Below, in pieces: positions 28,130 through 62,957 of a stretch of 64,000 bases of DNA; positions within the stretch are counted from its first letter, which is position 1; the number at the start of each line of letters is the position of its first letter. The DNA comes from Naegleria gruberi (Eukaryota). The stretch is taken from assembly GCA_000004985.1 (NCBI GenBank), contig GG738854.1; one strand, given 5' to 3'. The notes below the pieces were generated by a model. The model worked only from the letters and a program-made list of their open reading frames with translations. It was not told where the DNA came from and searched no databases. Made by a program: the position numbers and the translations under genes.

Positions 28130-31100
28130 ATGTCTGTTGCAGAAGCTTCTAATAATGGTGCAGCTGCAACTACATTTATTGAAAGGAGTATTAATTTTAA
28201 TGAATCATCAACCATACAACAATCATCATCACAACAACGAGAAAATCAACATGTGTCGGGAAGTTTTATAGGAAGCAATACGAGTAGTTCATCTAGCTCG
28301 ACCAATTTTTCAGCAACAATGATGAAAAGTATTAAGGAAGCTATTGTGTCCTATATAATTTCAATGCAATACAAGCCACTGAGGCAGGGCAAAAAGTTTA
28401 TGCTTCTCTCTGTTTTGTATCATTTGTATATAATGTGGATTTCCATCTTTTTACCAACACTAGGCGATTATAATTGGGGAGAATATGCAAATTGGATATT
28501 CAAGGCAGTAAATTATCCAGTAACCCTTTCACTAGATTTAATTCCCTATGGTGGCATTGAGGCTTTGGGAGCAATTGTGTTTGCAATCAGTGCCCTATCT
28601 GTTCTTGTTGTTATAATGGCAGTTGCGAGTGTTCATAGGACGAGTAAACACATTGAGAGGGTGAGATTAATAGTAATGGTGACTGGACTTGTTCTCTCTC
28701 TGTTGGGACCACTCTTTGCATTTATTCTGACGGGCTTTACAGATTGTGAATACAAGCAAAAGGTGTACTTTGAGAGTATAGATGATAAGGCATATGCTCT
28801 TTCTAGATATCCAGAAGCAGAGTGCTTTGGGGATAATATGTACCTTTACATTATTTCAATTATTGCAGTATTCGGAATTTGTCTATCCATATTATGCACC
28901 TTAATTTCCTTCTCATCAAGTTGGAAGAGTGACATGGTATTCAAAACAGTTGTCCATTATCCATTATCATACTTGGTTATTAGTAATATTCTTCAAATGT
29001 TCATCATGTATTTTATTCATGATGAGTTCATGTATGGAAGAGCAATCCTTCACTTGATTATTTCAGCAAGTTGGATTCCTATACTATTCTATGAACTGCC
29101 CTTCCAATACAGATATGAAAATTCAATTTATTCTGGAGTGGGTTTTGCAAGAATAGGAGCATCAATTGGTTCTCTGATATCTTCCCTTGCCAACTCAGCT
29201 GACAATTCAGGTTTTGGTTTGGGAATGTTTGGCTTAACGTTCGCTCTTATTATCATTTCATTCATTGGTGGAGTAATAGGAATGGAATTATACATTAGAT
29301 TATCTACTCACAAGATTAGAAGTTACATGTTGTCTATTGTTGAGAAAACTCTATCTGTTAGTGGATCATTGCCTTCGAAATTCAAAGAAAGAGCCAAATA
29401 CATTCTGGAAAAAGAGGCCACTTCAATTTACTCCCATTTCATTGAAACACAACAGGCAGGATATTTAAGAATATTTATTCGATTCAGCATTGATCAAAAC
29501 TCTAAAAACAGCTCAGAAGCCATCCTCACAAACACTGATTTATCTCTGTATTTCATTAAGGGTGCGTCAACTCAAAGATCATTCAACGATAGCAAAACTC
29601 TTCTCTATTCATCCATGTTAATTTATTTCAACTATGGAGATGGTAATTTAGGATCAATGTATGCAAAAGGGTTGTTGAAAATCTTGGCAAAGCAAAAATT
29701 GAATATACCAGAAGTAATTATGTTAACAGAGTTTTCTAAGGAAATTAAGGATGAGAATAGTGTAAATTCATCTGATCTCGAACAATTATTGAATAAGGTA
29801 GAGAGTAATATAGCTGAATTGAAGTCCCTCCATAAGGCCTTCTGGAAAGAATATTTGCAAGATGTAATTGAAGTGGGAACTTTGGAATCGATTAATAACA
29901 AGTGTTCACAACTGATGAGCCAATGCGAAACTATTTTCAATAATAGGCTTTCCAGATACAAACACAATAAGAATTTCCTCAGAGCGTATGCACAATTTTT
30001 AAACGAAATCAAATTTGACAAGGAAACTGCCTTTGAAATATTCCAAGACGCAGCCATTGTTGACGAAGATGAGCCATCTAAAAAACGTGTTCTTGCTAAG
30101 AGTAATTTATTCACAGAATATGGTAAACAGCATTCTGAAACCAATTTGGGGTTTTCTCTAGATGGCTTAAAGGCTAGCAACCAAAAGAGTATGGACATTG
30201 AAACAATTCATGAAGATCAAATGTTGGATGGAGTTGAGAATGATCCACTTGCAAAACGGGAGTTCATTTTCAAAAGTGCTCTCTCCCAACCACAACAAGG
30301 AGGATATCATATGGGATCTGTTATCCTGTTCTGCTTTATATCCTTCTCTTTTGTGCTCCTTGCCTTAGTTTTGAATGTTTATTATTCAGTGGAAGTTCTT
30401 TCAAATGTCAAGTTTGTTCAGCAAGTTTGTGAGCCAACTGTTTCTTCATATGCCATTTTGAAACAAATCAGAAATAATCAAATACTCCTTCAAGCTAAAA
30501 ATCAGGGTCTAGATGTTGATGAAACAGATATTATGGGTATTCTTAAGGACGAGACAAACGAAAATATTACTTCCATACAATCTGTTTGGAAGGAGAGACT
30601 TAATTTCTATGTTGAACATATTGAACATGTTAAAAAGATGTCACAAGGTAAAATTGTTGGAAAATTCACACCTGAAATGTATGAAGATTACAATAGTGAA
30701 ACAAATGAAATATTTGTTCCTGTGATTCAAACAAAGAATCAAAATTCATTCATTGAGGTCATTAAGAAGAATGTTTCACTCTCTGAAATATCATCACTCT
30801 TGATTGATATTGTTGAAAATTATCCATCAGGAGGATACAATGAAACATTGAAAGAATATGATTTCATGTTGGTATTCTTGAATAGGGAAACTTTCACAAA
30901 TGCCTTTGTGAAAACATGTTTCAGTTTCTTGGAAAGATGTGAACTTGACTCCAAAAATTTCAACAATTACTACCTATACTTTTATGTTTCTGTATTGTCA
31001 TTTTACATTCTTTACACAGCCATCTATATTCTCTATGTAAGAATTGAATTCTCATTTATCACTAGAACCATTAGATTAATGGAACGCAGTATTTCAAAGG

Positions 31101-33157
31101 ATATTGTAGGTAAAATCTATCAAGATTTGGCAAAGAAAGTAGAAGAAAATGCTTCTTTGGGATTTCTCAAATCAATAATCAGCCAACCAAAAGTGTTTTC
31201 TGTTTTTTGTATTGCTTGTTTGGCTTTTCTTACAATACTTGCATCTTCAATGATGTTCGTAGAGTTGAGAATTAATTCTGATCTAGGATATTCAACAATG
31301 TTGAGTGTGCATAAGACCGCCGAAAATCTTGTTTTGGTTCAGTCAATTGGATACAAACTAAATGAGATTTTCTTTTCCACTCTATCACCCTCTTTATATA
31401 ATGACCCTATCTTAATCAATGGAACCCTCTTAGATTATTACAGGGTGGAGGTGAGATACAATGTAACAGATTTGAGAAGAAGTTTTAACGAATTGATTTA
31501 TGGTAAGCTTGGAGGAAATTCAGCAATTTTAGGAATGATACCAAGAATTGATCAGATTATTACAGGAACTGATTGTTCTTCTGGCAATTGTACAAGTTTG
31601 GAAAACTCTTTGGACGAATTTACAATTGGATCTAGCAAGTTCAACGAAGATTTGCTTAAAGGAACTTTTACAGAGGAAGAGTTGGTTTTAAAGAATGCTG
31701 TTGTGGATGAATTGAGCCACCACCTAAGTGTAGACTTTCTTGAATTTTTGGCCTTGTTTACCATTGCAAGATCAATACCTTCTACTGCTATTGCACTAAT
31801 TTTCAGTATTCTTGGATTTCTCACAATAGTTATTTTCTATTGGTTACTGGTTCGAGTGTTTCAAATTCATTGGAATGATGTATTCCATTTAAGAAGCATG
31901 TTGAACTATGTAGATTATGACTACTTGGATTCTTATGACTCTTTAAGAAACTTTATTCTATACCATCAACTGCCTTCTAGAAACCTGTTCAAAAAGAAGA
32001 ATAAGATTGCCTCAGCAGAGGGTGACGAATCGAAGGTGAAGAATATTCTCAATGCAGCAGTTGACGGAGCTATTCTTTGTAATAGTACATGTGATATTGA
32101 AATATTCAATCCAGCAGCTCAAAGAATGTTTGGATGCAAACAATCAGATACTTTGGGAACTCCAATTTTCACTCTCTTTGATAAAGAATCGAGGACAGAG
32201 TTGGAGAGAGTCATTTCTGAATTGATTAAGAATGCCAAATCGACAACATCTTCTGAAAGTCTTGGTGAAACTGTTGAATTGGATTGTGTGAGAAAGAACT
32301 TGACAAAATTCCCTGCGAAAATCAATTTGTTCTCAACACTGTTTGATGGAAAACCAGTTGTGACATGTTTCATTAAGGATGCAACTTCTGAAAAGAAACA
32401 AAATGCATTGTTGGCTGAAGAAAAGAAAAAATCTGAAAATCTATTGAGATCTATTTTGCCAGAAAGTGTTGCCAATAGATTGAAATCTGGTGAAACATTC
32501 ATTGCTGAGAAATTTGCAGATATTACTTGTTTCTTTTCTGACATGGTTGGATTCACTCAAATGTCTTCAACTCTCAATCCAACTCAATTGGTTGGAATGT
32601 TAAATAATATTGTGAATGGATTTGATGCCTTAACAGACAAATATAGTTTGGAAAAGATCAAGACAATTGGAGATGCCTATTTCTGTGTTGGAGGAATTGG
32701 AAATACACAATCTGATCACCCAGAAAGAATACTTCGTTTCTCAATGGACATATTCTTAGTAGTACGTAACTATAACGAGGAGAATGGGAAAGAATTTGGA
32801 CATCAAATCAATATTCGAGTTGGAGTGAATACAGGAAGTGCAGTTGCAGGTGTGATTGGTACAAAGAAATTTGCCTATGATTTGTGGGGTGATACCATCA
32901 ACACTGCTTCTCGAATGGAATCAACATCAATTGCTGGAAGAATTCAAATTTCCAGATCAACTTATGAAAGAGTTTATGATATGGGTCTTGAATTTGAAGA
33001 AAGAAGTGTTGAAGCAAAAGGAAAGGGTTTGTGTCTCACTTATTTAGTCAAATCTCATCACCATGCACAGGCCATAGTTTCTGATAACGAAATCATTGAT
33101 TCTGACCTCGAGGTTTCCCTAACTACAAAACCAGAGGATGCAAAGGCAGAGATATAA
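28130..33157 (+). CDS. Multi-TM PAS-domain class III adenylyl cyclase (paralog A)
   Basis: ATG at 28130. Single 1,675-aa ORF. About 10-12 TM helices in the first 420 aa. Two further TM segments sit mid-protein. PAS-like segment ILNAAVDGAILCNSTCDIEIFNPAAQRMFGCKQSDTLGTPIFTLF. Cyclase domain LLRSILPESVANRLKSGE...FSDMVGFT...KIKTIGDAYF...YDLWGDTINTASRME has both metal-binding Asp, the transition-state N and R, and the K/D substrate pair that indicates ATP. Confidence 0.85.
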   Translation: MSVAEASNNGAAATTFIERSINFNESSTIQQSSSQQRENQHVSGSFIGSNTSSSSSSTNFSATMMKSIKEAIVSYIISMQYKPLRQGKKFMLLSVLYHLYIMWISIFLPTLGDYNWGEYANWIFKAVNYPVTLSLDLIPYGGIEALGAIVFAISALSVLVVIMAVASVHRTSKHIERVRLIVMVTGLVLSLLGPLFAFILTGFTDCEYKQKVYFESIDDKAYALSRYPEAECFGDNMYLYIISIIAVFGICLSILCTLISFSSSWKSDMVFKTVVHYPLSYLVISNILQMFIMYFIHDEFMYGRAILHLIISASWIPILFYELPFQYRYENSIYSGVGFARIGASIGSLISSLANSADNSGFGLGMFGLTFALIIISFIGGVIGMELYIRLSTHKIRSYMLSIVEKTLSVSGSLPSKFKERAKYILEKEATSIYSHFIETQQAGYLRIFIRFSIDQNSKNSSEAILTNTDLSLYFIKGASTQRSFNDSKTLLYSSMLIYFNYGDGNLGSMYAKGLLKILAKQKLNIPEVIMLTEFSKEIKDENSVNSSDLEQLLNKVESNIAELKSLHKAFWKEYLQDVIEVGTLESINNKCSQLMSQCETIFNNRLSRYKHNKNFLRAYAQFLNEIKFDKETAFEIFQDAAIVDEDEPSKKRVLAKSNLFTEYGKQHSETNLGFSLDGLKASNQKSMDIETIHEDQMLDGVENDPLAKREFIFKSALSQPQQGGYHMGSVILFCFISFSFVLLALVLNVYYSVEVLSNVKFVQQVCEPTVSSYAILKQIRNNQILLQAKNQGLDVDETDIMGILKDETNENITSIQSVWKERLNFYVEHIEHVKKMSQGKIVGKFTPEMYEDYNSETNEIFVPVIQTKNQNSFIEVIKKNVSLSEISSLLIDIVENYPSGGYNETLKEYDFMLVFLNRETFTNAFVKTCFSFLERCELDSKNFNNYYLYFYVSVLSFYILYTAIYILYVRIEFSFITRTIRLMERSISKDIVGKIYQDLAKKVEENASLGFLKSIISQPKVFSVFCIACLAFLTILASSMMFVELRINSDLGYSTMLSVHKTAENLVLVQSIGYKLNEIFFSTLSPSLYNDPILINGTLLDYYRVEVRYNVTDLRRSFNELIYGKLGGNSAILGMIPRIDQIITGTDCSSGNCTSLENSLDEFTIGSSKFNEDLLKGTFTEEELVLKNAVVDELSHHLSVDFLEFLALFTIARSIPSTAIALIFSILGFLTIVIFYWLLVRVFQIHWNDVFHLRSMLNYVDYDYLDSYDSLRNFILYHQLPSRNLFKKKNKIASAEGDESKVKNILNAAVDGAILCNSTCDIEIFNPAAQRMFGCKQSDTLGTPIFTLFDKESRTELERVISELIKNAKSTTSSESLGETVELDCVRKNLTKFPAKINLFSTLFDGKPVVTCFIKDATSEKKQNALLAEEKKKSENLLRSILPESVANRLKSGETFIAEKFADITCFFSDMVGFTQMSSTLNPTQLVGMLNNIVNGFDALTDKYSLEKIKTIGDAYFCVGGIGNTQSDHPERILRFSMDIFLVVRNYNEENGKEFGHQINIRVGVNTGSAVAGVIGTKKFAYDLWGDTINTASRMESTSIAGRIQISRSTYERVYDMGLEFEERSVEAKGKGLCLTYLVKSHHHAQAIVSDNEIIDSDLEVSLTTKPEDAKAEI

Positions 33158-33356
33158 TGAATCCATTTTGGTAATATAGAATCATTTTATTTGCCAATAT
33201 ATTTTCCTTTTTTGTCACTTAACGATTCTGACAACCAATGATGGCGATGTTAGTGAGTTACAGAAATGGCGGGTAAAACATGAAATCTCAATTCTTATTA
33301 AAAAAAACATCATTAACCCTTCTTGAATACAAAAAGATATTGGTTTGCTTTTTAAA

Positions 33357-36300
33357 ATGTCCGGGAGTGATGAGTTGGAGGCCTCTGCTATAGAAGACGA
33401 CCAAAGATCTAATTATTTCGAATCGAGGACTCATATGAAAGGAAATGGAGAAGGCTCAAGTATTGTTGGAAGTGCACTAAGTGTTCAATCGAATAATAGT
33501 ACAATAGCCTCGACAACTATGAGAACAGTGCAAACTGGAATATTGACTTTTATTTTGGCTCTACAGGATAAATCATACAAGAAATCAAAGAGGTTTATTT
33601 TTATTTCAATACTGTATCATTTGTATATCATTTGGACTTCAATCTTCTTACCAACACTAGGCGAATACAATTGGGGAGAGTATGGAAGTTGGATTTTCAA
33701 AGCACTTAATTATCCAATCACATTTTCATTAGATTTGGTGCCCTATGAAGAGAGTGCTGCAATTGCAGGTGTCATTATGGCTGTCATCTTGTTGGGTTTG
33801 TTTTTTGTGTCATTTTCTGCTTGGACTGTTTATAGAAATAGCAAGTTGGTTGAAAAGATGAAAGTGGTAATGGCTGTGTCGAGTTTGGTGTTTTCAGTGC
33901 TGAGCAAACCATTTGCTTTTGTTTTGGCTGGTTTTATTGATTGTGACTTTTCAAAGACAGTTTACTTTGAAGATATTGATGATAATACTAATGCACTTTC
34001 TCGATTCCAAACAGTTGCTTGTTTTGGAGGTAACACGTACTTGTATGCACTTTCGATTATTTCAATGCTTGCATTTTCTCTAGTGATACTTTCAACTCAT
34101 TTTGCCTATTCTCCTAGTTGGAGGAGTAAGGTTGTGTTTCATACAGTTGTTGGTTGGCCCATTACCTATTTGGTTATTTCAAACATGCTTGAGATTTATC
34201 TAATATTCTTTATTCCAAAATCTGAAATTTGGGCAAGAGCTACTTTACATTTGGTAGCAGCCCTGACATTTGTTCCAATGATTCTAATTACACTTCCCTT
34301 TCAGAGACGTATTGAAAATTCCTTCTATCTTGCTGTAGCTTTTGCAAAGGTTGGATCTTCAATTGGTTCACTCATTTCTTCCTTGGTCAATTCTAATAAT
34401 AAGTGGGATTTAGGTCTTGGAATGTCAGGTTTAACAATTGGTCTCATTATTTTAGGTTTCTGTGTTGGATTCATTGTGATGGAGTTGTATATACTAAGAA
34501 CAATGGCTTTCATTAGACACAAGATGATTAAGGCCATCGAGAGAGGAGTTTCCATTTCAGATACTGCTCAAACTCAACTTTCAGAGTCTGCAAAAATGGG
34601 CCTTGAAAGAGAAGCTACAAATATCTATTCCTCACTTCATGAATCACAAAGTTTGAACAAGCTCAAAATATTTATTAGGTTTAACATAATCCGAAGAAGC
34701 AAGCAAACAAAGGCAATACTAGACGATACGGATATGTGTCTCGCATTTATTAAGGGTGTTTCTCATCAGAAAACATTCAATGATCCTTCTCTAATATTGT
34801 TCTCCAGTTTACTTATCTATGTCAACCATCCAGATGAATCGAATAGCTCAATTTTTGCCAATAGTTTGTTGAAAAAAACTACGCGAGTCAAGTTATCATT
34901 CTTTGAGAAAGTTACCCTTGGTGAGGTTACCAAAGAATTGAACATCTCTAAAAATGGTAAAGTTGCAAGAAACACAACAGACTTGGAATCATTGCTAGTT
35001 AGAGTTGATTCAAATTTTTCGCAACTCAAATCTCTTCACAAATCCTTCTGGAAAGAATTTTTACAAGATGTTGTTGACACTACTAACTTGGAAGTTATCA
35101 ATAGTAAATGTGCTCAATTGATGGCTGACTCTGAAAATATTTTCCACAATAGAATTTCAAGATATAAGAATAACAAAACCTTCTTGAGATCATATGCTCG
35201 CTTTCTAGATGAAATCAAGTTTGACAAGGATCAAGCTGCTGAACTCTTCCAAGAAGCAGCAACTATGGAAGAGGAAGAGCTTGCCACAAAGAGAAGGAGG
35301 CAGAGAAAGTTTAGTCGTGTTGTGCCCTATGATGGACCTGTAGTAAGCGTTGAACCTCCTGCATTCTCTCTCGATGGGTTGAGAAAGGGAACAAATGAAC
35401 CAATTACAAACCTAATGGATGATGATTTTGATGATCATATGTTGGATGGTGTTGAGAATGAACCTGCAACTAAGAGAGAGTATGTTTTCAAAGCGGCTCT
35501 AGCACAAAAGACCAACGGAGAGTTGCACGTGGCCTCTGTAGTAATGTTCTGCCTTCTTTCATTTGCAATAATACTTGTTTCCCTTGTGTTGAATGTGTAT
35601 TATTCAGAGGAAGTTCTTTCAAATGTCAAGTTTGTCCAACAAGTTTGTGAACCAACTGTTTCTTCATATGCAATCTTGAAACAAATCAGAAATAATCAAA
35701 TACTAATCCAAGCAAAGAATCAGGGTATTGGTGTTCAGGAAGCTGAACTAATTGACGTCTTGGAAATAGAAACAGATAGCAACATTACTGTAACAAGTTT
35801 AAATGAGATTTGGAAGGAGAGACTTAATTTCTATGTTGAACATATTGAACATGTTAAAAAGATGTCACAAGGTAAAATTGTTGGAAAATTCACACCTGAA
35901 ATGTATGAAGATTACAATAGTGAAACAAATGAAGTATTTGTTCCTGTGATTCAAACAAAGAATCAAAATTCATTCATTGAGGTCATTAAGAAGAATGTTT
36001 CACTCTCTGAAATTTCATCACTCTTGATTGATATTGTTGAAAATTATCCATCAGGAGGATACAATGAAACATTGAAAGAATATGATTTCATGTTGGTATT
36101 CTTGAACAGGGAAACTTTCACAAATGCCTTTGTGAAAACATGTTTCAGTTTCTTGGAAAGATGTGAACTTGACTCTGTGCAATTTGATAACACTTTCCTC
36201 TATTTCTTTGTTGGTTCTGCCTGTTTTTATATTCTGTCCTCCCTAATTTACATTATTTACATCAGGATTCAATTCACTCTAGTTGCCAACACACTGGCAT

Positions 36301-38399
36301 TATACGAAAGACATTTAACAAAAGACTTGGTTGGTAAGATCTACCAAGAATTAGGAAAGAATGTTGATGAGAATTCTACCACTAGCTTCCTTAAATCTTT
36401 CATTACCAAACCAAAGGTATTTTCTTTTGTTTGTATCCTTTCTTTGGCTTTTCTTACAATTCTTGCATCATCAATGATGTTTTTGGAGTTGAGATTGAAC
36501 TCTGACTTGGGATTTTCAACCATGTTGAGTGTGCGCAAGACTGCAGAATCATTAGTGTTGGCCCAATCAATTGGGCACAAGTTGAATGAGCAGTTCATAT
36601 CAACACTTTCTTCATCTATTTACAATGATCCCTTGCTTGTAAACAACTCAACAATGAATCTATTCAGATATGAAGTGAGATATAATGTTACTGATTTTAG
36701 AAGAACATATAATGAGCTGATTTACGGAAAAATAGGAGTTTCACCAACCATTCTTGGCGCCATTCCAAAGATTGATGAAATTATTACAGGAACAGACTGT
36801 ACTGCTGGAAACTGCACAAGTTTGGAAAACACAGTCGATGAGTTCACTATTAAATCAAGCAAGTACAATGAGGATTTGATGAAAGGTGTTTTCTCTCCAG
36901 AGGAGCTAATTTTGAAAAACACAGTAGTTGATGGTTTGGTACATCATTTGTGTGTTGATTTGTTAGAGTTTTTGGCCTTGTTTACCATTGCTAGATCAAC
37001 ACCATCAACAATTATTGCACTTCTATTCGGTATATTTGGATTTTCTGCCGTAGTGTTATTTTTTGGCTTGTTGAACAAGGTGTTCCACAATCATTGGAAT
37101 GATATTTTCCATTTAAGAAACATGTTGAATTATGTTGGATATGATCACTTGGATTCCAGTGATCCTTTGAGAAACTATGCTTTGTACAATCAGTTACCAG
37201 GTAAGAATATATTCAAAAAGAAGAATAAGATTGCCTCAGCAGAGGGTGATGAATCCAAAGTAAGAAATATTCTCAATGCAGCAGTTGATGGAGCAGTGTT
37301 GTGTAACAGTGCATGCGATATTGAAATATTCAATCCAGCAGCTCAAAGAATGTTTGGATGCAAACAATCAGATACTTTGGGAACTCCAATTTTCACTCTC
37401 TTTGATAAAGAATCGAGGACAGAGTTGGAGAGAGTCATTTCTGACTTGATTAAGAATGCCAAATCGACAACATCTTCTGAAAGTCTTGGTGAAACTGTTG
37501 AATTGGATTGTGTGAGAAAGAACTTGACAAAATTCCCTGCAAAAATCAATTTGTTTTCAACACTGTTTGATGGAAAACCAGTTGTGACATGTTTCATTAA
37601 GGATGCAACTTCTGAAAAGAAACAAAATGCATTGTTGGCTGAAGAAAAGAAAAAGTCTGAAAATCTATTGAGATCTATTTTGCCAGAAAGTGTTGCCAAC
37701 AGATTGAAATCTGGTGAAACATTCATTGCTGAGAAATTTGCAGATATTACCTGTTTCTTTTCTGACATGGTTGGATTCACTCAAATGTCTTCAACCCTCA
37801 ATCCAACTCAATTGGTTGGAATGTTAAATAATATTGTGAATGGATTTGATGCCTTAACAGACAAATATAGTTTGGAAAAGATCAAGACAATTGGAGATGC
37901 CTATTTTTGTGTTGGAGGAATTGGAAATACACAATCTGATCACCCAGAAAGAATGCTTCGTTTCTCAATGGATATTTTCCAAATATTGAGAACCTACAAT
38001 GAACAGAATAGAAAGGAATTTGGACATCAAATCAATATTCGAGTTGGAGTGAATACAGGAAGTGCAGTTGCAGGTGTGATTGGTACAAAGAAATTTGCCT
38101 ATGATTTGTGGGGTGATACCATCAACACTGCTTCTCGAATGGAATCGACATCAATTGCTGGAAGAATTCAAATTTCCAGATCAACTTATGAAAGAGTTTA
38201 TGATATGGGTCTTGAATTTGAAGAAAGAAGTGTTGAAGCAAAAGGAAAGGGTTTGTGTCTCACTTATTTAGTCAAATCTCATCACCATGCTCAAGCAATC
38301 ATTACGGATGATGTTGTTGATTTTGTTCCAGAAGAAGAAAAGGATGAGCAAGACTTGGAAGTAAGCTATCCTGTTAGGTCCAGTAAAGATGAAGAATAA
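33357..38399 (+). CDS. Multi-TM PAS-domain class III adenylyl cyclase (paralog B, tandem duplicate)
   Basis: First ATG at 33357 (MSGSDELEA). The ORF-track start at 33345 is a TTG. Same architecture as paralog A. The N-terminal half is roughly 50-60% identical to A at protein level. The 3' ~1.1 kb and an internal ~0.37-kb block are >=99% identical to A at nucleotide level. Confidence 0.85.
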   Translation: MSGSDELEASAIEDDQRSNYFESRTHMKGNGEGSSIVGSALSVQSNNSTIASTTMRTVQTGILTFILALQDKSYKKSKRFIFISILYHLYIIWTSIFLPTLGEYNWGEYGSWIFKALNYPITFSLDLVPYEESAAIAGVIMAVILLGLFFVSFSAWTVYRNSKLVEKMKVVMAVSSLVFSVLSKPFAFVLAGFIDCDFSKTVYFEDIDDNTNALSRFQTVACFGGNTYLYALSIISMLAFSLVILSTHFAYSPSWRSKVVFHTVVGWPITYLVISNMLEIYLIFFIPKSEIWARATLHLVAALTFVPMILITLPFQRRIENSFYLAVAFAKVGSSIGSLISSLVNSNNKWDLGLGMSGLTIGLIILGFCVGFIVMELYILRTMAFIRHKMIKAIERGVSISDTAQTQLSESAKMGLEREATNIYSSLHESQSLNKLKIFIRFNIIRRSKQTKAILDDTDMCLAFIKGVSHQKTFNDPSLILFSSLLIYVNHPDESNSSIFANSLLKKTTRVKLSFFEKVTLGEVTKELNISKNGKVARNTTDLESLLVRVDSNFSQLKSLHKSFWKEFLQDVVDTTNLEVINSKCAQLMADSENIFHNRISRYKNNKTFLRSYARFLDEIKFDKDQAAELFQEAATMEEEELATKRRRQRKFSRVVPYDGPVVSVEPPAFSLDGLRKGTNEPITNLMDDDFDDHMLDGVENEPATKREYVFKAALAQKTNGELHVASVVMFCLLSFAIILVSLVLNVYYSEEVLSNVKFVQQVCEPTVSSYAILKQIRNNQILIQAKNQGIGVQEAELIDVLEIETDSNITVTSLNEIWKERLNFYVEHIEHVKKMSQGKIVGKFTPEMYEDYNSETNEVFVPVIQTKNQNSFIEVIKKNVSLSEISSLLIDIVENYPSGGYNETLKEYDFMLVFLNRETFTNAFVKTCFSFLERCELDSVQFDNTFLYFFVGSACFYILSSLIYIIYIRIQFTLVANTLALYERHLTKDLVGKIYQELGKNVDENSTTSFLKSFITKPKVFSFVCILSLAFLTILASSMMFLELRLNSDLGFSTMLSVRKTAESLVLAQSIGHKLNEQFISTLSSSIYNDPLLVNNSTMNLFRYEVRYNVTDFRRTYNELIYGKIGVSPTILGAIPKIDEIITGTDCTAGNCTSLENTVDEFTIKSSKYNEDLMKGVFSPEELILKNTVVDGLVHHLCVDLLEFLALFTIARSTPSTIIALLFGIFGFSAVVLFFGLLNKVFHNHWNDIFHLRNMLNYVGYDHLDSSDPLRNYALYNQLPGKNIFKKKNKIASAEGDESKVRNILNAAVDGAVLCNSACDIEIFNPAAQRMFGCKQSDTLGTPIFTLFDKESRTELERVISDLIKNAKSTTSSESLGETVELDCVRKNLTKFPAKINLFSTLFDGKPVVTCFIKDATSEKKQNALLAEEKKKSENLLRSILPESVANRLKSGETFIAEKFADITCFFSDMVGFTQMSSTLNPTQLVGMLNNIVNGFDALTDKYSLEKIKTIGDAYFCVGGIGNTQSDHPERMLRFSMDIFQILRTYNEQNRKEFGHQINIRVGVNTGSAVAGVIGTKKFAYDLWGDTINTASRMESTSIAGRIQISRSTYERVYDMGLEFEERSVEAKGKGLCLTYLVKSHHHAQAIITDDVVDFVPEEEKDEQDLEVSYPVRSSKDEE

Positions 38400-41358: not shown

Positions 41359-41987
41359 ATGAATGAAAGATTGGCTTTTCACTTGAAGAACAAGTATGTG
41401 ATTATTAGTGTGGTCGCCACAGTGTTGGCTATTATATTATTGGTGGCGGGTTTGGGTGCTGCTATTGCTACGTGGGCTGCTGCTTCTCACTTTTCTATAT
41501 ATTCATCTGTTGAGAAGCATTCTGATTGTACACCAAGGTTTGTGTTTTTTTGTGTGTGAATGATAGCTAATTGACTTGATTCTATTTTCTTGATGATAGT
41601 GGTTGCTCAATTGTCAATGGAAATGTAATGCAATATAATATTACAAAGAATGGAGTGACTGTTACTGTTACATCAAGTGATTTAAACACTAATCTATGTA
41701 ATTCGACCTTTGTGGACTGTTATTACAATGTGGATAGTTTGCCAAAGACCTTGTGGAATACAAGTGAAAAAAAGGATTCCAGTAGGACAACTGTTGCTGC
41801 TTACATTATTTTGGGATTAGCTTTCATGATCATTCCAATTTGTGTGTTACTTGTCGATGGGTTGACCATTTTCTGGTGTTATAAACGTAAGCTTGTTGGT
41901 GACGAAACTGAACTAATCCCTGGTGGAAATACATCCTCTACTAGAGATAGTGTCAGTGTTTCAAACCAGAACTCTTCCTCAGTGTAA
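41359..41987 (+). CDS. Small membrane glycoprotein, bitopic or type II-like. Two exons: 41359..41537 and 41600..41987
   Basis: ATG at 41359. N-terminal anchor VIISVVATVLAIILLVAGLGAAIATWAAA. Cys- and N-sequon-rich ectodomain. Second TM VAAYIILGLAFMIIPICVLLV. The join ...SDCTPS|GCSIVNGNV needs a phase-2 intron. Confidence 0.45.
41538..41599 (+). other. Spliceosomal intron (62 nt, GTTTGT...GATAG, phase 2)
   Basis: Sequence gtttgtgtttttttgtgtgtgaatgatagctaattgacttgattctattttcttgatgatag. Only the acceptor at 41598-41599 restores the downstream frame without a stop. Confidence 0.45.
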
Positions 41988-42394: not shown

Positions 42395-43108
42395 ATGCCA
42401 TCTTCATCATCTTCAAAATCTAAAAAATCCAAACAATCATCTTCCGATGATGAAAAAACCAAATCAAAAATTACAAAATCAACCAAAACAATGAACAAAA
42501 AAACAACTAAAAAACCAGAAAGGAAAATTAATCAAGTAGAAACGTTTTTTGCAAAAGATCAAGAAACATGGAGAAAGTGGCTTGAGGAGAATAATGCAAG
42601 CAAGGATGCAATTTGGTTGATTTATCATAAAAAGCATACTAAAAGGGAAACTATAGTTTATGAACGAGCTTTGGATGAAGCACTTTGCTTTGGATGGATC
42701 GATTCAACAGCCAGACCTCATCCTGAGGATCCTGACAATTCATACATGCAATACTTTTGTAAAAGAAAGGTCGATAAGAGTCAGTGGTCAAAGAAAAACA
42801 AGGATCGAGTGGCAGAATTGATTGAGGAAGGGAAAATGACAGAACATGGACTTTCAATGATTAATAAGGCAAAGGAAAATGGAATGTGGGATTTAATGAA
42901 TGATGTCTATGATTTGAAAATTCCACAAGATTTGAAAGATGCATTTGAAGATGAAGAGGATGCATTTGAATATTTTGAAAGTCTAACTAAAAGTGTAAAG
43001 AAGCAAGCTCTCAATATGGTATTCCAAGCAAAGAGAGAGGCAACCAGACAGAAGAGAATTCAACATATTGTGGATAAGTGTAAAAATAATGAAAAGCCAA
43101 TTTTCTAG
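42395..43108 (+). CDS. YdeI/OmpD-associated family (bacterial-type) protein with a eukaryote-style Lys/Ser-rich N-terminal extension
   Basis: ATG at 42395. The core WRKWLEENNASKDAIWLIYHKK...YERALDEALCFGWIDSTARPH...SYMQYFCKRKVDKSQWSKKNKDRVAELIEEGKMTEHGL...ENGMW is followed by IPQDLKDAFEDEEDAFEYFESLTKSVKKQALNMVFQAKREATRQKRIQHIV. This matches the two-part YdeI/OmdA-like pattern found almost only in bacteria (EALCFGWID ... S.WS..N...V..L...G.M ... AKREETRQRRI). Confidence 0.55.
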   Translation: MPSSSSSKSKKSKQSSSDDEKTKSKITKSTKTMNKKTTKKPERKINQVETFFAKDQETWRKWLEENNASKDAIWLIYHKKHTKRETIVYERALDEALCFGWIDSTARPHPEDPDNSYMQYFCKRKVDKSQWSKKNKDRVAELIEEGKMTEHGLSMINKAKENGMWDLMNDVYDLKIPQDLKDAFEDEEDAFEYFESLTKSVKKQALNMVFQAKREATRQKRIQHIVDKCKNNEKPIF

Positions 43109-56103: not shown

Positions 56104-56760
56104 ATGTTGTGTGTCAGGGTTTGGTTAGGATTCAGAGTTGATTTATTTGGGTTATTTAAGAGATTACTTAGTGAAGATTCATATCATTGATTATATTTCT
56201 TATCATCTATTAATGATGTAAATTTGATGGTTTCATTTCTTGTATTGATAGATATTTAAAGGTCAGGTCAGTACTAACTTTTGAATTATGGACTTTGAGA
56301 AGTCAAATGTTTGGGACGTGAATCTACTCATTAGATTGAATAGGTTTTGCTAATAAAAGAACATTTCATTGATTTATTGATTATAACGGTCAAATTGAGT
56401 TGAATGGAAGTGAATCACATGTTGATTGATCGTGGTTGGGTTTGGTTAGGATTCAGAGTTGATTTATTTGGGTTATTTAAGAAATTAATTAGTGAAGATT
56501 CATACCATTGATTATATTTCTTATCGTCTATTAATGATGTAAATTTGATGTTTTCATTTCTTATATTGATAGATATTTAAAGGTCAGGTCAGTACTAACT
56601 TTTGAATTATGGACTTTGAGAAGTCAAATGTTTGGGACGTGAATCTACTCATTAGATTGAATAGGTTTTGCTAATAAAAGAACATTTCATTGATTTATTG
56701 ATTATAACGGTCAAATTGAGTTGAATGGAAGTGAATCTAATGTTGATTCATCGTGGATGG
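56104..56760. repeat. Subtelomeric tandem repeat, 2 x ~321 bp, about 97% identical
   Basis: GGGTTTGGTTAGGATTCAGAGTTGATTTATTTGGGTTATTTAAG... occurs at 56117 and again at 56438. The two copies are collinear through ...GTCAAATTGAGTTGAATGGAAGTGAATC. A third copy breaks off after about 8 nt. Each unit starts with a telomere-like GGGTTTGG. Confidence 0.8.
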
Positions 56761-57120
56761 GTAGTTTCGCCACGAAGTGGTGCAACTACCAACCTTTGTA
56801 GATTGAATCAGGTTGATTTGCATCTCTCCAATATGTAGCATTATCAAGAGAGTGATTGTTCACCAATTCAATGATCAATATTCAATAATCGGTTTGATTT
56901 CAATCAATAGCTTGATCGTCAAGCTTTGATTTAATATTCCAGTAATCAACGGCAGTCTATTTTTAAATTTAATCAAAGACCATATATAGTATCTAGACTT
57001 TTATGATCTAGAAACTATCTAGATGTGTTCTATATTGAATAATATATTTGAAAATGAGAAGAATTAACTCTTCTATTGAGTTTTATTGGTATTGCAAGGT
57101 ATTTCGATTATAATAATCTA

Positions 57121-59083: not shown

Positions 59084-59654
59084 CATAGAAATCACTCTTG
59101 AAACATGAATTGTACTATAATGTGTGAGTAACATATTGGTGTTGGAATTGATCAATAACTCTTTGAAATGACTGAGATGGAATGTAAACTATATTCTAAG
59201 GTATATTGGTTGACTGTAAGATACTGAGCCATCAATGTGAAACTTTATCAGATTGTTCTCCTTATCAAGAGGAGTGTATTCATATTTGATACTTGTATTA
59301 TATTTTGTAAAATGAATGAGATGGAGTATATTCTATATGTTGAAATGTGACAATTTGACAGATTGTTATTATTATCATACTGAATTCAATTCTAAAACAT
59401 TAAAATTGATTCCAGATGTATATCAGTGTGATTAAATGTATCTGGTAAAGTTACATGATGGTTGAATGTACTTTCGCTGAGATAGAGTACACTTGGATAA
59501 AATCACTCTTGACATTGAACATTTACTGATTGACTGAATTAAAGTATCATGAATTGTTTTTAAACTTGTATAGATGTATATACATGGTGTATAGAATGTG
59601 TGTTATCAGTTCTAGACTAATTGCATATAAAATAAGTGAGTTGGAGCATAATCT
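59084..59654. repeat. Subtelomeric repeat family, copy 2. It is truncated by the assembly gap
   Basis: It is collinear with copy 1 apart from the 0.47-kb indel. It ends with ...AAGTGAGTTGGAGCATAATCT immediately before the N run. An imperfect 14-bp hairpin, GGAAGTGAAAGTGCCA-TT-TGGCACTCACTTCC, lies just upstream at about 59041-59072. Confidence 0.7.
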
Positions 59655-62600
59655 NNNNNNNNNNNNNNNNNNNNNNNNNNNNNNNNNNNNNNNNNNNNNN
59701 NNNNNNNNNNNNNNNNNNNNNNNNNNNNNNNNNNNNNNNNNNNNNNNNNNNNNNNNNNNNNNNNNNNNNNNNNNNNNNNNNNNNNNNNNNNNNNNNNNNN
59801 NNNNNNNNNNNNNNNNNNNNNNNNNNNNNNNNNNNNNNNNNNNNNNNNNNNNNNNNNNNNNNNNNNNNNNNNNNNNNNNNNNNNNNNNNNNNNNNNNNNN
59901 NNNNNNNNNNNNNNNNNNNNNNNNNNNNNNNNNNNNNNNNNNNNNNNNNNNNNNNNNNNNNNNNNNNNNNNNNNNNNNNNNNNNNNNNNNNNNNNNNNNN
60001 NNNNNNNNNNNNNNNNNNNNNNNNNNNNNNNNNNNNNNNNNNNNNNNNNNNNNNNNNNNNNNNNNNNNNNNNNNNNNNNNNNNNNNNNNNNNNNNNNNNN
60101 NNNNNNNNNNNNNNNNNNNNNNNNNNNNNNNNNNNNNNNNNNNNNNNNNNNNNNNNNNNNNNNNNNNNNNNNNNNNNNNNNNNNNNNNNNNNNNNNNNNN
60201 NNNNNNNNNNNNNNNNNNNNNNNNNNNNNNNNNNNNNNNNNNNNNNNNNNNNNNNNNNNNNNNNNNNNNNNNNNNNNNNNNNNNNNNNNNNNNNNNNNNN
60301 NNNNNNNNNNNNNNNNNNNNNNNNNNNNNNNNNNNNNNNNNNNNNNNNNNNNNNNNNNNNNNNNNNNNNNNNNNNNNNNNNNNNNNNNNNNNNNNNNNNN
60401 NNNNNNNNNNNNNNNNNNNNNNNNNNNNNNNNNNNNNNNNNNNNNNNNNNNNNNNNNNNNNNNNNNNNNNNNNNNNNNNNNNNNNNNNNNNNNNNNNNNN
60501 NNNNNNNNNNNNNNNNNNNNNNNNNNNNNNNNNNNNNNNNNNNNNNNNNNNNNNNNNNNNNNNNNNNNNNNNNNNNNNNNNNNNNNNNNNNNNNNNNNNN
60601 NNNNNNNNNNNNNNNNNNNNNNNNNNNNNNNNNNNNNNNNNNNNNNNNNNNNNNNNNNNNNNNNNNNNNNNNNNNNNNNNNNNNNNNNNNNNNNNNNNNN
60701 NNNNNNNNNNNNNNNNNNNNNNNNNNNNNNNNNNNNNNNNNNNNNNNNNNNNNNNNNNNNNNNNNNNNNNNNNNNNNNNNNNNNNNNNNNNNNNNNNNNN
60801 NNNNNNNNNNNNNNNNNNNNNNNNNNNNNNNNNNNNNNNNNNNNNNNNNNNNNNNNNNNNNNNNNNNNNNNNNNNNNNNNNNNNNNNNNNNNNNNNNNNN
60901 NNNNNNNNNNNNNNNNNNNNNNNNNNNNNNNNNNNNNNNNNNNNNNNNNNNNNNNNNNNNNNNNNNNNNNNNNNNNNNNNNNNNNNNNNNNNNNNNNNNN
61001 NNNNNNNNNNNNNNNNNNNNNNNNNNNNNNNNNNNNNNNNNNNNNNNNNNNNNNNNNNNNNNNNNNNNNNNNNNNNNNNNNNNNNNNNNNNNNNNNNNNN
61101 NNNNNNNNNNNNNNNNNNNNNNNNNNNNNNNNNNNNNNNNNNNNNNNNNNNNNNNNNNNNNNNNNNNNNNNNNNNNNNNNNNNNNNNNNNNNNNNNNNNN
61201 NNNNNNNNNNNNNNNNNNNNNNNNNNNNNNNNNNNNNNNNNNNNNNNNNNNNNNNNNNNNNNNNNNNNNNNNNNNNNNNNNNNNNNNNNNNNNNNNNNNN
61301 NNNNNNNNNNNNNNNNNNNNNNNNNNNNNNNNNNNNNNNNNNNNNNNNNNNNNNNNNNNNNNNNNNNNNNNNNNNNNNNNNNNNNNNNNNNNNNNNNNNN
61401 NNNNNNNNNNNNNNNNNNNNNNNNNNNNNNNNNNNNNNNNNNNNNNNNNNNNNNNNNNNNNNNNNNNNNNNNNNNNNNNNNNNNNNNNNNNNNNNNNNNN
61501 NNNNNNNNNNNNNNNNNNNNNNNNNNNNNNNNNNNNNNNNNNNNNNNNNNNNNNNNNNNNNNNNNNNNNNNNNNNNNNNNNNNNNNNNNNNNNNNNNNNN
61601 NNNNNNNNNNNNNNNNNNNNNNNNNNNNNNNNNNNNNNNNNNNNNNNNNNNNNNNNNNNNNNNNNNNNNNNNNNNNNNNNNNNNNNNNNNNNNNNNNNNN
61701 NNNNNNNNNNNNNNNNNNNNNNNNNNNNNNNNNNNNNNNNNNNNNNNNNNNNNNNNNNNNNNNNNNNNNNNNNNNNNNNNNNNNNNNNNNNNNNNNNNNN
61801 NNNNNNNNNNNNNNNNNNNNNNNNNNNNNNNNNNNNNNNNNNNNNNNNNNNNNNNNNNNNNNNNNNNNNNNNNNNNNNNNNNNNNNNNNNNNNNNNNNNN
61901 NNNNNNNNNNNNNNNNNNNNNNNNNNNNNNNNNNNNNNNNNNNNNNNNNNNNNNNNNNNNNNNNNNNNNNNNNNNNNNNNNNNNNNNNNNNNNNNNNNNN
62001 NNNNNNNNNNNNNNNNNNNNNNNNNNNNNNNNNNNNNNNNNNNNNNNNNNNNNNNNNNNNNNNNNNNNNNNNNNNNNNNNNNNNNNNNNNNNNNNNNNNN
62101 NNNNNNNNNNNNNNNNNNNNNNNNNNNNNNNNNNNNNNNNNNNNNNNNNNNNNNNNNNNNNNNNNNNNNNNNNNNNNNNNNNNNNNNNNNNNNNNNNNNN
62201 NNNNNNNNNNNNNNNNNNNNNNNNNNNNNNNNNNNNNNNNNNNNNNNNNNNNNNNNNNNNNNNNNNNNNNNNNNNNNNNNNNNNNNNNNNNNNNNNNNNN
62301 NNNNNNNNNNNNNNNNNNNNNNNNNNNNNNNNNNNNNNNNNNNNNNNNNNNNNNNNNNNNNNNNNNNNNNNNNNNNNNNNNNNNNNNNNNNNNNNNNNNN
62401 NNNNNNNNNNNNNNNNNNNNNNNNNNNNNNNNNNNNNNNNNNNNNNNNNNNNNNNNNNNNNNNNNNNNNNNNNNNNNNNNNNNNNNNNNNNNNNNNNNNN
62501 NNNNNNNNNNNNNNNNNNNNNNNNNNNNNNNNNNNNNNNNNNNNNNNNNNNNNNNNNNNNNNNNNNNNNNNNNNNNNNNNNNNNNNNNNNNNNNNNNNNN

Positions 62601-62957
62601 NNNNNNNNNNNNNNNNNNNNNNNNNNNNNNNNNNNNNNNNNNNNNNNNNNNNNNNNNNNNNNNNNNNNNNNNNNNNNNNNNNNNNNNNNNNNNNNNNNNN
62701 NNNNNNNNNNNNNNNNNNNNNNNNNNNNNNNNNNNNNNNNNNNNNNNNNNNNNNNNNNNNNNNNNNNNNNNNNNNNNNNNNNNNNNNNNNNNNNNNNNNN
62801 NNNNNNNNNNNNNNNNNNNNNNNNNNNNNNNNNNNNNNNNNNNNNNNNNNNNNNNNNNNNNNNNNNNNNNNNNNNNNNNNNNNNNNNNNNNNNNNNNNNN
62901 NNNNNNNNNNNNNNNNNNNNNNNNNNNNNNNNNNNNNNNNNNNNNNNNNNNNNNNNN
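59655..62957. other. Assembly gap (3,303 N, plus an isolated N at 62959)
   Basis: A contiguous run of n. The ORFs 59530..62988 and 59612..63013 in the six-frame track are artefacts of translating N as X. Confidence 0.99.

What the first reader, a model, noticed from the sequence alone, without database searches (positions are those of the whole stretch)
42395..43108. Bacterial-type YdeI/OmpD-associated family gene in a eukaryotic chromosome, a horizontal-transfer candidate that looks domesticated
Residues 50-237 match the two conserved halves of the bacterial YdeI/OmdA-like family (…EALCFGWIDS…SQWSKKNKDRVAELIEEGKMTEHGL… and …KKQALNMVFQAKREATRQKRIQHIV). As far as I know this family is essentially restricted to bacteria.
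The gene has an ATG start, the local AT-rich codon usage, and a 50-aa Lys/Ser-rich N-terminal extension that looks like a nuclear-localisation signal. It is flanked by ordinary eukaryotic genes. It therefore looks like an old, domesticated acquisition rather than contamination.
Basis: partly seen in the sequence, partly recalled or inferred. Interest (0 to 1): 0.55.

Follow-up and report, generated by a model that had tools for sequence, protein, structure and literature searches.

The report
Domesticated bacterial gene in Naegleria
A small gene of unknown function in the amoeba Naegleria gruberi came from bacteria long ago and has since become an ordinary, conserved host gene with a new lysine-rich tail; this is a solid but fairly routine example of gene transfer into a bacteria-eating protist.

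Summary
The ORF at 42395-43108 (+) is real (237 aa). It belongs to the two-domain DUF8412+OmdA family (COG4430, annotated "YdeI/OmpD-associated").

The window is Naegleria gruberi. It carries eukaryotic flanking genes and a telomere-like (TGGGTT)n array at its end.

- **Not contamination:** the gene is single-copy and intronless, uses host-like codons, and is under purifying selection.
- **Orthologs:** they occur in N. fowleri, N. lovaniensis, Willaertia magna and one uncultured amoeba. The five form one clade (88-100 % NJ bootstrap) inside a very large, mostly bacterial family. The most similar named relatives are Bacteroidota (45-53 % identity). The exact sister is unresolved.
- **Tail:** the four genome copies share a eukaryote-specific disordered Lys/Ser-rich N-terminal tail.

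1. The family is not restricted to bacteria. It also occurs in Balamuthia, Chromera, a chytrid and Choanoeca, outside the heterolobosean clade and usually with their own basic tails.
2. The family name is a misnomer. The real enterobacterial YdeI/OmdA is an unrelated periplasmic OB-fold protein.
3. An NLS is plausible but not shown.

Biochemical function remains unknown. One oddity: N. gruberi groups with Willaertia rather than with the other Naegleria. This is favoured but not proven.

The parts
42395..43108 (+). Complete intronless CDS (237 aa plus TAG) of the DUF8412+OmdA (COG4430-type) protein.
   Evidence: ORF listing and sequence. 100 % identical to N. gruberi protein P0001 over residues 33-237. 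Upstream in-frame stop 57 nt before the ATG.
42395..42529 (+). Eukaryote-specific N-terminal tail (residues 1-45). Lys/Ser/Thr-rich, net +11, predicted disordered, absent from typical ~190-aa bacterial members.
   Evidence: pLDDT 46-56 over residues 1-40. Composition. Equivalent 'MP(S/K)xS...' tails in N. fowleri, N. lovaniensis and, via an unannotated upstream ATG, W. magna. Tail omega 0.37 between N. fowleri and N. lovaniensis.
42491..42493 (+). Second in-frame ATG (Met33). This is the start used by the public 205-aa gene model, which probably truncates the protein.
   Evidence: P0001 begins MNKKTTKK = residue 33 of the ORF. Conservation of the upstream tail in four species favours ATG 42395.
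42530..42769 (+). N-terminal alpha/beta domain (residues ~46-125, DUF8412) with beta-alpha-beta-alpha-beta-beta topology. It holds the WRxWL and EALCFGWIDS motifs.
   Evidence: AF2 model pLDDT >90 with secondary-structure elements E50-52, H56-66, E72-78, H89-98, E101-108, E116-123. Family-wide invariant W62, G100, W101, D103, R124. PF28474 precomputed.
42725..42733 (+). Approximately residues 111-113: a three-residue insertion shared only with Willaertia magna.
   Evidence: Alignments. Absent from N. fowleri, N. lovaniensis, the metagenomic amoeba and the bacterial consensus.
42791..43087 (+). C-terminal all-helical half (residues ~133-231). It includes the WSKxNK and AKENGxW motifs and the Pfam OmdA match (residues 174-231 = nt 42914-43087).
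   Evidence: Pfam PF13376 66.6 bits. Helices H133-144 to H215-230. Conserved W131, N135, G152, W165, K213, T217, R218, R221.

Best explanation
**What is shown.**
- A ~190-aa gene of the DUF8412+OmdA family (COG4430) is fixed in heterolobosean amoebae: Naegleria, Willaertia and an uncultured relative.
- The family is overwhelmingly bacterial. The most similar named members are Bacteroidota.
- In N. gruberi the gene is a single-copy, intronless chromosomal gene with host codon usage. It lies about 20 kb from a telomere-like repeat.
- It is under strong purifying selection.
- It retains every family-wide signature residue: W62, G100, W101, D103, R124, W131, N135, G152 and others.

**What is inferred.**
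- The gene entered the lineage once, from a bacterium, before the sampled taxa diverged.
- After entry it gained a 40-60-residue disordered Lys/Ser/Thr-rich N-terminal tail, shared by both Naegleria subclades and Willaertia.
- The protein still performs the ancestral, uncharacterised biochemical task. The dense set of invariant Trp/Arg/Asp/Asn residues on a slightly acidic two-domain core points to a specific ligand- or substrate-binding pocket rather than a structural role.
- The added tail (+11) most likely brings that activity to the nucleus or onto nucleic acids. I put this at about 0.35.

**What it is not.** It is not a periplasmic bacteriocin or antimicrobial-peptide protection factor.

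**Confidence.** The stated 0.8 applies to the origin-and-domestication part. The functional part is much less certain.
For: **Identity and integration**
- 100 % match to N. gruberi on a 665-kb scaffold.
- Eukaryotic neighbours.
- PHO4 neighbour on the same scaffold; beyond heteroloboseans its homologs are animals and fungi.
- No N-run between the gene and its neighbours.
- (TGGGTT)59 at the window end.

**Amelioration**
- GC3 0.29 and CAI-like 0.76, against neighbours at 0.71 +/- 0.04. Three Bacteroidota-type homolog genes score 0.53-0.57 and one AT-rich one scores 0.66.

**Orthologs**
- Orthologs sit in eukaryotic contexts in N. fowleri, N. lovaniensis and W. magna. A eukaryote-like metagenomic contig also carries one.

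**Single origin**
- Heterolobosean clade support is 100 % (120 sequences) and 88-89 % (261 sequences) by NJ bootstrap.
- A profile of the five sequences retrieves only those five at 348-429 bits. Bacteria follow at <= 254 bits.
- The four genome copies share a tail that bacteria lack.

**Bacterial affinity**
- All named top hits are Bacteroidota or Balneola.
- The best GTDB genomes are Flavobacteriales and Cytophagales.
- The family has 5,507 50 %-identity representatives.

**Selection**
- Omega is 0.07 on the core and 0.37 on the tail for N. fowleri vs N. lovaniensis.
- Omega is about 0.13 for N. gruberi vs W. magna.
- Signature residues are all retained.

**Tail**
- It is disordered and basic.
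- 8 of 10 known eukaryotic members, from at least four lineages, carry non-homologous basic tails. Only 10 of 364 other sequences do.

**Not the Salmonella-type YdeI**
- The model is alpha/beta plus helical.
- No BOF Pfam hit.
- hhalign probability against E. coli YdeI is 0.06 %.
- The literature describes YdeI/OmdA as a periplasmic OB-fold protein (PMC6370654).
Against: - **Sister unresolved.** No sequence is sister to the heterolobosean clade in more than 17 % of bootstrap replicates. The loosely associated set contains two eukaryotes (Chromera, P0148) as well as prokaryote-like contigs. A direct bacterial donor, and Bacteroidota in particular, rests on similarity ranking rather than a supported node.
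- **Methods are limited.** Phylogenies are NJ plus a simple Poisson+F+G4 ML test, not a full ML or Bayesian analysis.
- **No expression or localisation data** could be examined.
- **Function is not established.** There is no solved or annotated structural relative, no conserved bacterial operon and no experimental literature on this family.
- **NLS doubtful by motif.** A classical NLS motif is not conserved among the orthologs, and basic disordered tails are common in eukaryotic proteins generally.
- **Internal gene tree conflicts with the species tree**. Simple vertical descent after one transfer may be incomplete.
Confidence: 0.8

Rival explanations
1. The gene reached Heterolobosea from another eukaryote, or belongs to an older, patchily retained eukaryotic lineage of the family, rather than coming directly from a bacterium.
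For: The family occurs in Balamuthia, Chromera, a chytrid, Choanoeca and an unnamed eukaryote with a SPRY-HECT neighbour. In the point-estimate NJ tree the smallest group enclosing the heterolobosean clade includes Chromera and the eukaryotic P0148.
Against: That grouping has at most 17 % support. None of the named eukaryotes joins the clade as direct sister in any of 200 replicates. Identity to Bacteroidota proteins (45-53 %) exceeds identity to Chromera (31 %), Choanoeca (34 %), the chytrid (40 %), Balamuthia (41 %) and P0148 (43 %). The basic tails of the different eukaryotic lineages are non-homologous and sit at different termini.
Confidence: 0.1
2. The protein is a cytosolic stress or xenobiotic-related small-molecule-binding protein or enzyme, as it presumably is in bacteria. 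The Lys/Ser-rich tail would be an incidental disordered extension with no targeting role.
For: The core is slightly acidic (net -2), which does not suit a general nucleic-acid binder. It has many invariant polar and aromatic residues, including Cys98 and Asp103. Some bacterial neighbours are small stress or detoxification proteins: DinB, OsmC, glyoxalase, cupin, SnoaL, MsrA. One family member was strongly induced in L. plantarum under patulin (PMC12846167). A classical NLS motif is not conserved among orthologs.
Against: The tail has been kept for the whole Naegleria-Willaertia divergence with omega 0.37. Basic tails recur in independent eukaryotic lineages and in a few bacterial members with histone-H1-like AKP repeats. 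No neighbour family recurs in more than 4 of 111 flanking genes.
Confidence: 0.3
3. There were two independent bacterial acquisitions, one in the N. gruberi/Willaertia lineages and one in the N. fowleri/N. lovaniensis lineage.
For: N. gruberi is only 49-50 % identical to N. fowleri and N. lovaniensis, no closer than to bacteria. There is no shared synteny.
Against: The five eukaryotic sequences are each other's nearest neighbours and are monophyletic at 88-100 %. Both subclades share the non-bacterial N-terminal tail beginning MP(S/K)xS.
Confidence: 0.04
4. It is bacterial contamination or a mis-assembly in the N. gruberi genome.
For: It is intronless, belongs to a bacterial-type family, and the assembly has a gap 16.5 kb downstream.
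Against: It is contiguous, with no N, with eukaryotic genes on both sides. Codon usage is host-like. It has a eukaryote-specific tail. Orthologs are present in three independently assembled heterolobosean genomes among eukaryotic genes.
Confidence: 0.01
5. It works like Salmonella YdeI/OmdA, a periplasmic factor that binds an outer-membrane porin and protects against cationic antimicrobial peptides or bacteriocins, as the Pfam name implies.
For: Only the Pfam/UniRef name 'Bacteriocin-protection, YdeI or OmpD-Associated'.
Against: Salmonella/E. coli YdeI is a ~130-aa periplasmic OB-fold BOF-family protein. hhalign probability is 0.06 %. There is no BOF Pfam hit. The model is alpha/beta plus helical. 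There is no signal peptide, and the host has no outer membrane.
Confidence: 0.01

Closest known systems
Bacterial 'YdeI/OmpD-associated family protein' (COG4430; Pfam PF28474 DUF8412 + PF13376 OmdA), e.g. from Pedobacter, Flavobacterium, Dyadobacter, Chitinophagaceae
   Same: Collinear two-domain architecture over ~190 residues at 45-53 % identity. All family-wide signature residues are present, and Pfam OmdA scores well above its cut-off.
   Different: It is encoded in a eukaryotic chromosome with host codon usage. It carries a 45-residue basic disordered N-terminal tail that typical bacterial members lack, and a 3-residue insertion shared with Willaertia.
Enterobacterial YdeI/OmdA (BOF/YgiW family periplasmic OB-fold protein)
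   Same: Only the name, through the Pfam description.
   Different: It has a different fold, size and cellular compartment, with no detectable sequence or profile similarity.
Other eukaryotic members of the same family (Balamuthia mandrillaris, Chromera velia, Chytridiales sp. JEL 0842, Choanoeca flexa)
   Same: They have the same core domains and are usually extended by Lys/Arg-rich disordered tails.
   Different: They are only 31-41 % identical and do not group as direct sister to the heterolobosean clade. Their tails are non-homologous and are often C-terminal.
Documented bacterial-origin genes in Heterolobosea (e.g. ~5 % of Willaertia magna proteins have bacterial best hits; PMC6892926)
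   Same: It is a phagotrophic amoeba carrying an integrated, ameliorated bacterial-type gene.
   Different: I found no paper that mentions this gene. Its acquisition predates the divergence of the sampled Naegleria and Willaertia lineages, and it gained a eukaryote-specific tail.
Alba / SepF / SpoVS / TusA-type two-layer alpha/beta sandwiches
   Different: The scores are in the range of generic fold resemblance. Rossmann fragments score equally well, there is no sequence similarity, and no match covers both domains.

Membership tests
DUF8412+OmdA family (COG4430, 'YdeI/OmpD-associated family protein') | C-terminal PF13376 (OmdA) domain above the Pfam gathering score | tested here: met
   66.6 bits against a cut-off of 25.6, residues 174-231 covering profile positions 2-59 of 60.
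DUF8412+OmdA family (COG4430, 'YdeI/OmpD-associated family protein') | N-terminal PF28474 (DUF8412) domain | tested here: met
   Precomputed Pfam hits PF13376 + PF28474 for the identical N. gruberi protein P0001 and all homologs. The model is not in the local Pfam copy, so I did not rescore it myself.
DUF8412+OmdA family (COG4430, 'YdeI/OmpD-associated family protein') | Full-length collinear similarity to bacterial members and retention of family-wide invariant residues | tested here: met
   45-53 % identity over 78-81 % of the query with E ~1e-50. W62, G100, W101, D103, R124, W131, N135, G152 and about 20 further >=85 % columns are conserved.
Enterobacterial YdeI/OmdA (BOF family) | OB-fold / Pfam BOF domain / sequence similarity to E. 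coli YdeI | tested here: not met
   No BOF hit at E <= 1. AF2 model is alpha/beta plus helices. hhalign probability against E. coli K-12 YdeI is 0.06 %.
Enterobacterial YdeI/OmdA (BOF family) | Secreted to the periplasm (signal peptide) and interacts with porin OmpD | tested here: not met
   The N-terminus is a hydrophilic Lys/Ser tail with no hydrophobic signal sequence. The porin interaction is not testable and has no counterpart in an amoeba.
Horizontally acquired, domesticated eukaryotic gene | Physical integration among bona fide host genes | tested here: met
Horizontally acquired, domesticated eukaryotic gene | Phylogenetic nesting of the eukaryotic clade within donor-domain sequences, with a supported sister | tested here: inconclusive
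   The clade is monophyletic (88-100 %) inside a family dominated by bacteria, but the sister group is unresolved (<= 17 %) and the loosely associated set is mixed.
Horizontally acquired, domesticated eukaryotic gene | Orthologs in related hosts, host-like codon usage, purifying selection | tested here: met
   orthologs; codon usage; omega 0.07-0.13 on the core.
Horizontally acquired, domesticated eukaryotic gene | Transcription and translation in the host | not testable with these tools
   No RNA-seq or proteome data are accessible. Only the Choanoeca flexa homolog is known from a transcriptome assembly.
Classical nuclear localisation signal | Conserved K(K/R)x(K/R) or bipartite basic motif in the tail | tested here: inconclusive
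   KKSK occurs at residues 10-13 in N. gruberi only. N. fowleri, N. lovaniensis and W. magna have no strict monopartite motif, although all four tails are strongly basic.
YjbR/CyaY-like superfamily, DUF1801 (as named in COG4430) | Detectable profile similarity to YjbR or DUF1801 | tested here: not met
   hhalign probability is 0.07 % against E. coli YjbR and 0.23 % against the DUF1801 domain of P0126. Both templates were single sequences, so sensitivity was low.

The most novel reading that the evidence does not exclude
The DUF8412+OmdA family encodes an uncharacterised nucleic-acid- or chromatin-associated activity that phagotrophic and other eukaryotes have captured repeatedly (Heterolobosea, Amoebozoa, chromerids, chytrids, choanoflagellates). 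Each capture was followed by convergent addition of a basic tail that sends the protein to the nucleus. Within Heterolobosea the gene additionally moved between the N. gruberi and Willaertia lineages, or was duplicated and then reciprocally lost.
Probability: 0.2. Interest if true: 0.55.

Novelty: new member of a known kind. Interest (0 to 1): 0.3.

Why it matters
Bacterial-to-protist gene transfer is well established, and about 5 % of Willaertia proteins look bacterial. One more case does not change the picture.

Its value is as a clean, well-controlled example. It is old, fixed across a genus-level clade, ameliorated, selected, and remodelled with a eukaryote-specific tail.

It also flags three further points:
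- A large family (5,507 50 %-identity clusters) has no known function.
- That family's database name propagates a wrong function.
- Its recurrent appearance in unrelated eukaryotes with basic tails offers a testable clue to what the family does.

Tried and rejected
**Structure and sequence searches**
- Sequence and profile searches of the PDB found nothing.
- Foldseek against the PDB gave a best E of 0.15.
- The BFVD viral structure library gave nothing at E < 0.01.
- AFDB50 was unavailable.
- NCBIfam, PHROGs and PADLOC gave no meaningful hit.
- hhalign against YjbR and DUF1801 was negative at single-sequence sensitivity.

**Gene neighbourhood**
- Guilt by association in bacteria: three individual contexts and a tally of 111 flanking ORFs from 80 GTDB loci showed no family in more than 4 neighbours.
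- Methyladenine glycosylase (3 of 111) and one adjacent photolyase are too few to interpret.

**Literature**
- Only the unrelated Salmonella YdeI work and one proteomics anecdote turned up.
- No paper links Naegleria to this family.

**Other probes**
- Cluster look-ups for the organisms behind the tailed or sister sequences mostly returned no names.
- Micro-synteny between heterolobosean loci is absent, apart from multi-copy families and one loosely linked gene.

**Explanations rejected**
- Contamination.
- A Salmonella-type function.
- Two independent acquisitions.

Rate acceleration alone as the cause of the N. gruberi-Willaertia grouping is disfavoured but not excluded.
Full report
**Observation.** The ORF at 42395-43108 (+) exists exactly as described. 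It has an ATG start, 237 codons and a TAG stop, with an in-frame stop 57 nt upstream. Pfam OmdA (PF13376) matches residues 174-231 at 66.6 bits against a gathering score of 25.6. The precomputed annotation of the identical database protein adds PF28474 (DUF8412) for the N-terminal half. The overlapping antisense ORFs are short and are explained by the AT-rich composition.

**Host and integration.** The product is 100 % identical to a 'predicted protein' of Naegleria gruberi on a 665-kb scaffold.
- The window's other genes are typically eukaryotic. They include a PHO4 transporter, a DUF4116-repeat protein, a carboxylesterase, a PAS-adenylate cyclase, a eukaryotic aspartyl protease, RCC1 and kinase proteins, and a cyt-b5-desaturase fusion.
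- Beyond other heteroloboseans, the homologs of the adjacent PHO4 gene are animals and fungi, and it lies on the same scaffold.
- The only N-run in the window is 59655-62957.
- The window ends in 59 copies of TGGGTT, a telomere-like array. The gene is therefore probably about 20 kb from a chromosome end.
- GC3 (0.29) and a CAI-like index trained on 16 neighbouring ORFs (0.76, against 0.71 +/- 0.04) are host-like. Three Bacteroidota-type homolog genes score 0.53-0.57 and one AT-rich one scores 0.66.
- Contamination is excluded for practical purposes.

**Relatives.** The best hits after N. gruberi itself are:

| Source | Identity |
|---|---|
| Willaertia magna | 69 % |
| Protein on a 4-kb metagenomic contig | 63 % |
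| N. fowleri | 49 % |
| N. lovaniensis | 50 % |

- The other ORFs on the metagenomic contig look eukaryotic: an F-box-like protein and an ABCB transporter C-terminus.
- About 2,000 bacterial proteins follow at 45-53 % identity. Every named one is from Bacteroidota or Balneola.
- The exhaustive search counts 5,507 50 %-identity representatives.
- A scan of GTDB species genomes puts Flavobacteriales and Cytophagales on top. It also shows the family in Actinomycetota, Acidobacteriota, Chloroflexota, Planctomycetota and a Bathyarchaeota MAG.
- The N. fowleri, N. lovaniensis and W. magna genes each lie among eukaryotic genes (Ku, HhH-GPD glycosylase, kinases, RCC1, G-alpha). The N. fowleri and N. 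lovaniensis loci are syntenic with each other.

**Phylogeny.**
- The five heterolobosean sequences are mutual nearest neighbours. They form a clade with 100 % NJ bootstrap among 120 sequences and 88-89 % among 261 sequences under two distance measures.
- A profile built from them retrieves only those five at 348-429 bits, then bacteria at <= 254 bits. Each sequenced genome therefore holds one copy and no extant paralog.
- The sister of the clade is unresolved. No sequence is sister in more than 17 % of replicates. The loosely associated set contains Chromera and P0148 (eukaryotic, next to a SPRY-HECT ligase) together with prokaryote-like contigs.
- Origin from bacteria, and from Bacteroidota in particular, is therefore the best-supported reading by similarity and by the family's distribution. 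It is not a resolved node.

**Not restricted to bacteria.** Cluster look-ups identify family members in Choanoeca flexa (transcriptome), Chromera velia, Chytridiales sp. JEL 0842 and Balamuthia mandrillaris, which has two copies. They are 31-41 % identical to the N. gruberi protein. None joins the heterolobosean clade as direct sister in any replicate. This suggests separate histories.

**Domestication.**
- Synonymous sites are saturated between the deep lineages. On the less saturated N. fowleri-N. lovaniensis pair, omega is 0.07 for the core and 0.37 for the tail. N. gruberi against W. magna gives about 0.13.
- All family-wide signature residues are retained in all five heterolobosean proteins.
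- The N-terminal tail is absent from typical bacterial members. It is present in N. gruberi, N. fowleri and N. lovaniensis.
- Reading from an unannotated in-frame ATG at L003:9815, it is also present in W. magna, giving MPSSSKQRTNNNK... and 254 aa.
- This supports ATG 42395 as the true start. The public 205-aa N. gruberi model and the 192-aa W. magna model are probably truncated.

**Structure and function.**
- AlphaFold2 with a 120-sequence alignment gives pLDDT >90 for residues 46-237 and disorder for residues 1-45. The fold is a beta-alpha-beta-alpha-beta-beta domain followed by a helical half.
- No solved structure matches it convincingly, and no viral, phage or defence-system family does.
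- Bacterial neighbourhoods are not conserved.
- The name 'bacteriocin-protection, YdeI or OmpD-associated' derives from Salmonella YdeI/OmdA. The literature and the E. coli annotation describe that protein as a periplasmic BOF-family OB-fold protein. It shows no similarity to this family. The name should not be used to infer function.
- What can be said: the slightly acidic core (net -2) carries many invariant Trp, Arg, Asp and Asn residues, which suits a specific binding pocket or active site.
- The eukaryotic tail is strongly basic (+11).
- Across the family, 8 of 10 known eukaryotic members have basic tails, against 10 of 364 other sequences. The eukaryotic members come from at least four lineages, and their tails are non-homologous and sit at either terminus. 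A few bacterial members carry histone-H1-like AKP repeats.
- I therefore favour, at roughly 0.35, a role in which the tail brings the conserved activity to the nucleus or to nucleic acids. The main rival is a cytosolic small-molecule or stress function with an incidental tail, at roughly 0.3.
- A classical NLS motif is present only in N. gruberi.

**An unexplained detail.** Within the clade, N. gruberi groups with Willaertia rather than with the other Naegleria.
- NJ bootstrap for N. gruberi + W. magna is 90-98 %, and for Naegleria monophyly it is 0 %.
- The two share a three-residue insertion.
- The identity order is reversed relative to the adjacent PHO4 control gene:

| Gene | N. gruberi vs N. 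lovaniensis | N. gruberi vs W. magna |
|---|---|---|
| PHO4 (control) | 71 % | 57 % |
| This gene | 50 % | 69 % |

- A simple ML comparison prefers the gene-tree arrangement (RELL 0.88, delta lnL 7-11). The KH z is only 1.2-1.75, so the species tree is not firmly rejected.
- Duplication with reciprocal loss, transfer between the two amoeba lineages, or rate acceleration in the N. fowleri lineage all remain possible.

**Verdict.** This is a new, well-documented member of a known kind of event: an ancient bacterial-type gene domesticated in a phagotrophic protist. The gene belongs to a large family of unknown function. Interest is modest. It comes from the recurrent eukaryotic captures with basic tails, the misleading family name and the internal gene-tree conflict.

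Noticed in passing
window 63650-64000: 59 tandem copies of TGGGTT (98 % matches) run to the end of the window with the G-rich strand 5'->3'. This looks like a telomere-like array, which would make the region subtelomeric. The candidate gene lies about 20.5 kb away, across the assembly gap (the strand skew was first seen).
   Followed up: partly
window 59655-62957: A 3.3-kb run of N (assembly gap) produces the long artefactual 'ORFs' at 59530-63013.
   Followed up: yes
window 56117-56762: A 321-bp unit is repeated twice in tandem (96 % identity). It begins with a telomere-like GGGTTTGG motif and may be a subtelomeric repeat.
   Followed up: no
L003 9815-10579 (Willaertia magna JBEGDK010000031.1): The public 192-aa W. 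magna gene model appears N-terminally truncated. An in-frame upstream ATG adds a 62-residue Lys/Ser/Thr-rich tail beginning MPSSS, like the N. gruberi tail. The N. gruberi 205-aa model (start at window 42491) likewise omits 32 residues.
   Followed up: yes
window 28130-33157 and 33345-38399: Two adjacent same-strand ORFs of nearly equal size (1675 and 1684 aa). The second is a TPR-PAS-adenylate/guanylate cyclase. They are probably a tandem duplicate pair, but the first was not scanned.
   Followed up: no
window 121-1143 vs L003 16919-17812: A Willaertia gene 7 kb from its YdeI-like copy is 49 % identical to the ORF at window 157-1011, which lies 41 kb from the N. gruberi copy. This is a hint of loose conserved linkage despite the absence of micro-synteny. 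The N. fowleri and N. lovaniensis RGS-like neighbours match the same ORF at only 25 %.
   Followed up: partly
P0126, P0143, P0171, P0267 (family members): Unusual architectures occur within the family: a DUF1801-YdeI fusion (P0126), a duplicated OmdA module (P0143), an SLT transglycosylase fragment upstream (P0171), and an 811-aa protein with a long Thr/Asp/Pro-rich low-complexity N-terminus (P0267).
   Followed up: partly
L093 3432-5519; flanking ORFs of L013-L092: In one prokaryote-like contig the family gene follows a DNA photolyase by 25 bp on the same strand. Methyladenine glycosylase is a neighbour in 3 of 111 flanking ORFs, and DinB and a WYL regulator are neighbours elsewhere. This is a faint DNA-damage flavour, too sparse to interpret.
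   Followed up: partly
P0156 and P0271 (Balamuthia mandrillaris): Balamuthia has two near-identical copies on different contigs. One has a 123-residue acidic and Ser-rich N-terminal extension, and both have a Thr/Lys-rich C-terminal tail.
   Followed up: no
window 41359-41987: Two short ORFs (66 and 119 aa) lie just upstream of the candidate and have hydrophobic, transmembrane-like stretches and N-glycosylation-like motifs. They may be two exons of one small membrane-protein gene. The 119-aa ORF has no Pfam hit; the 66-aa ORF was not scanned.
   Followed up: no
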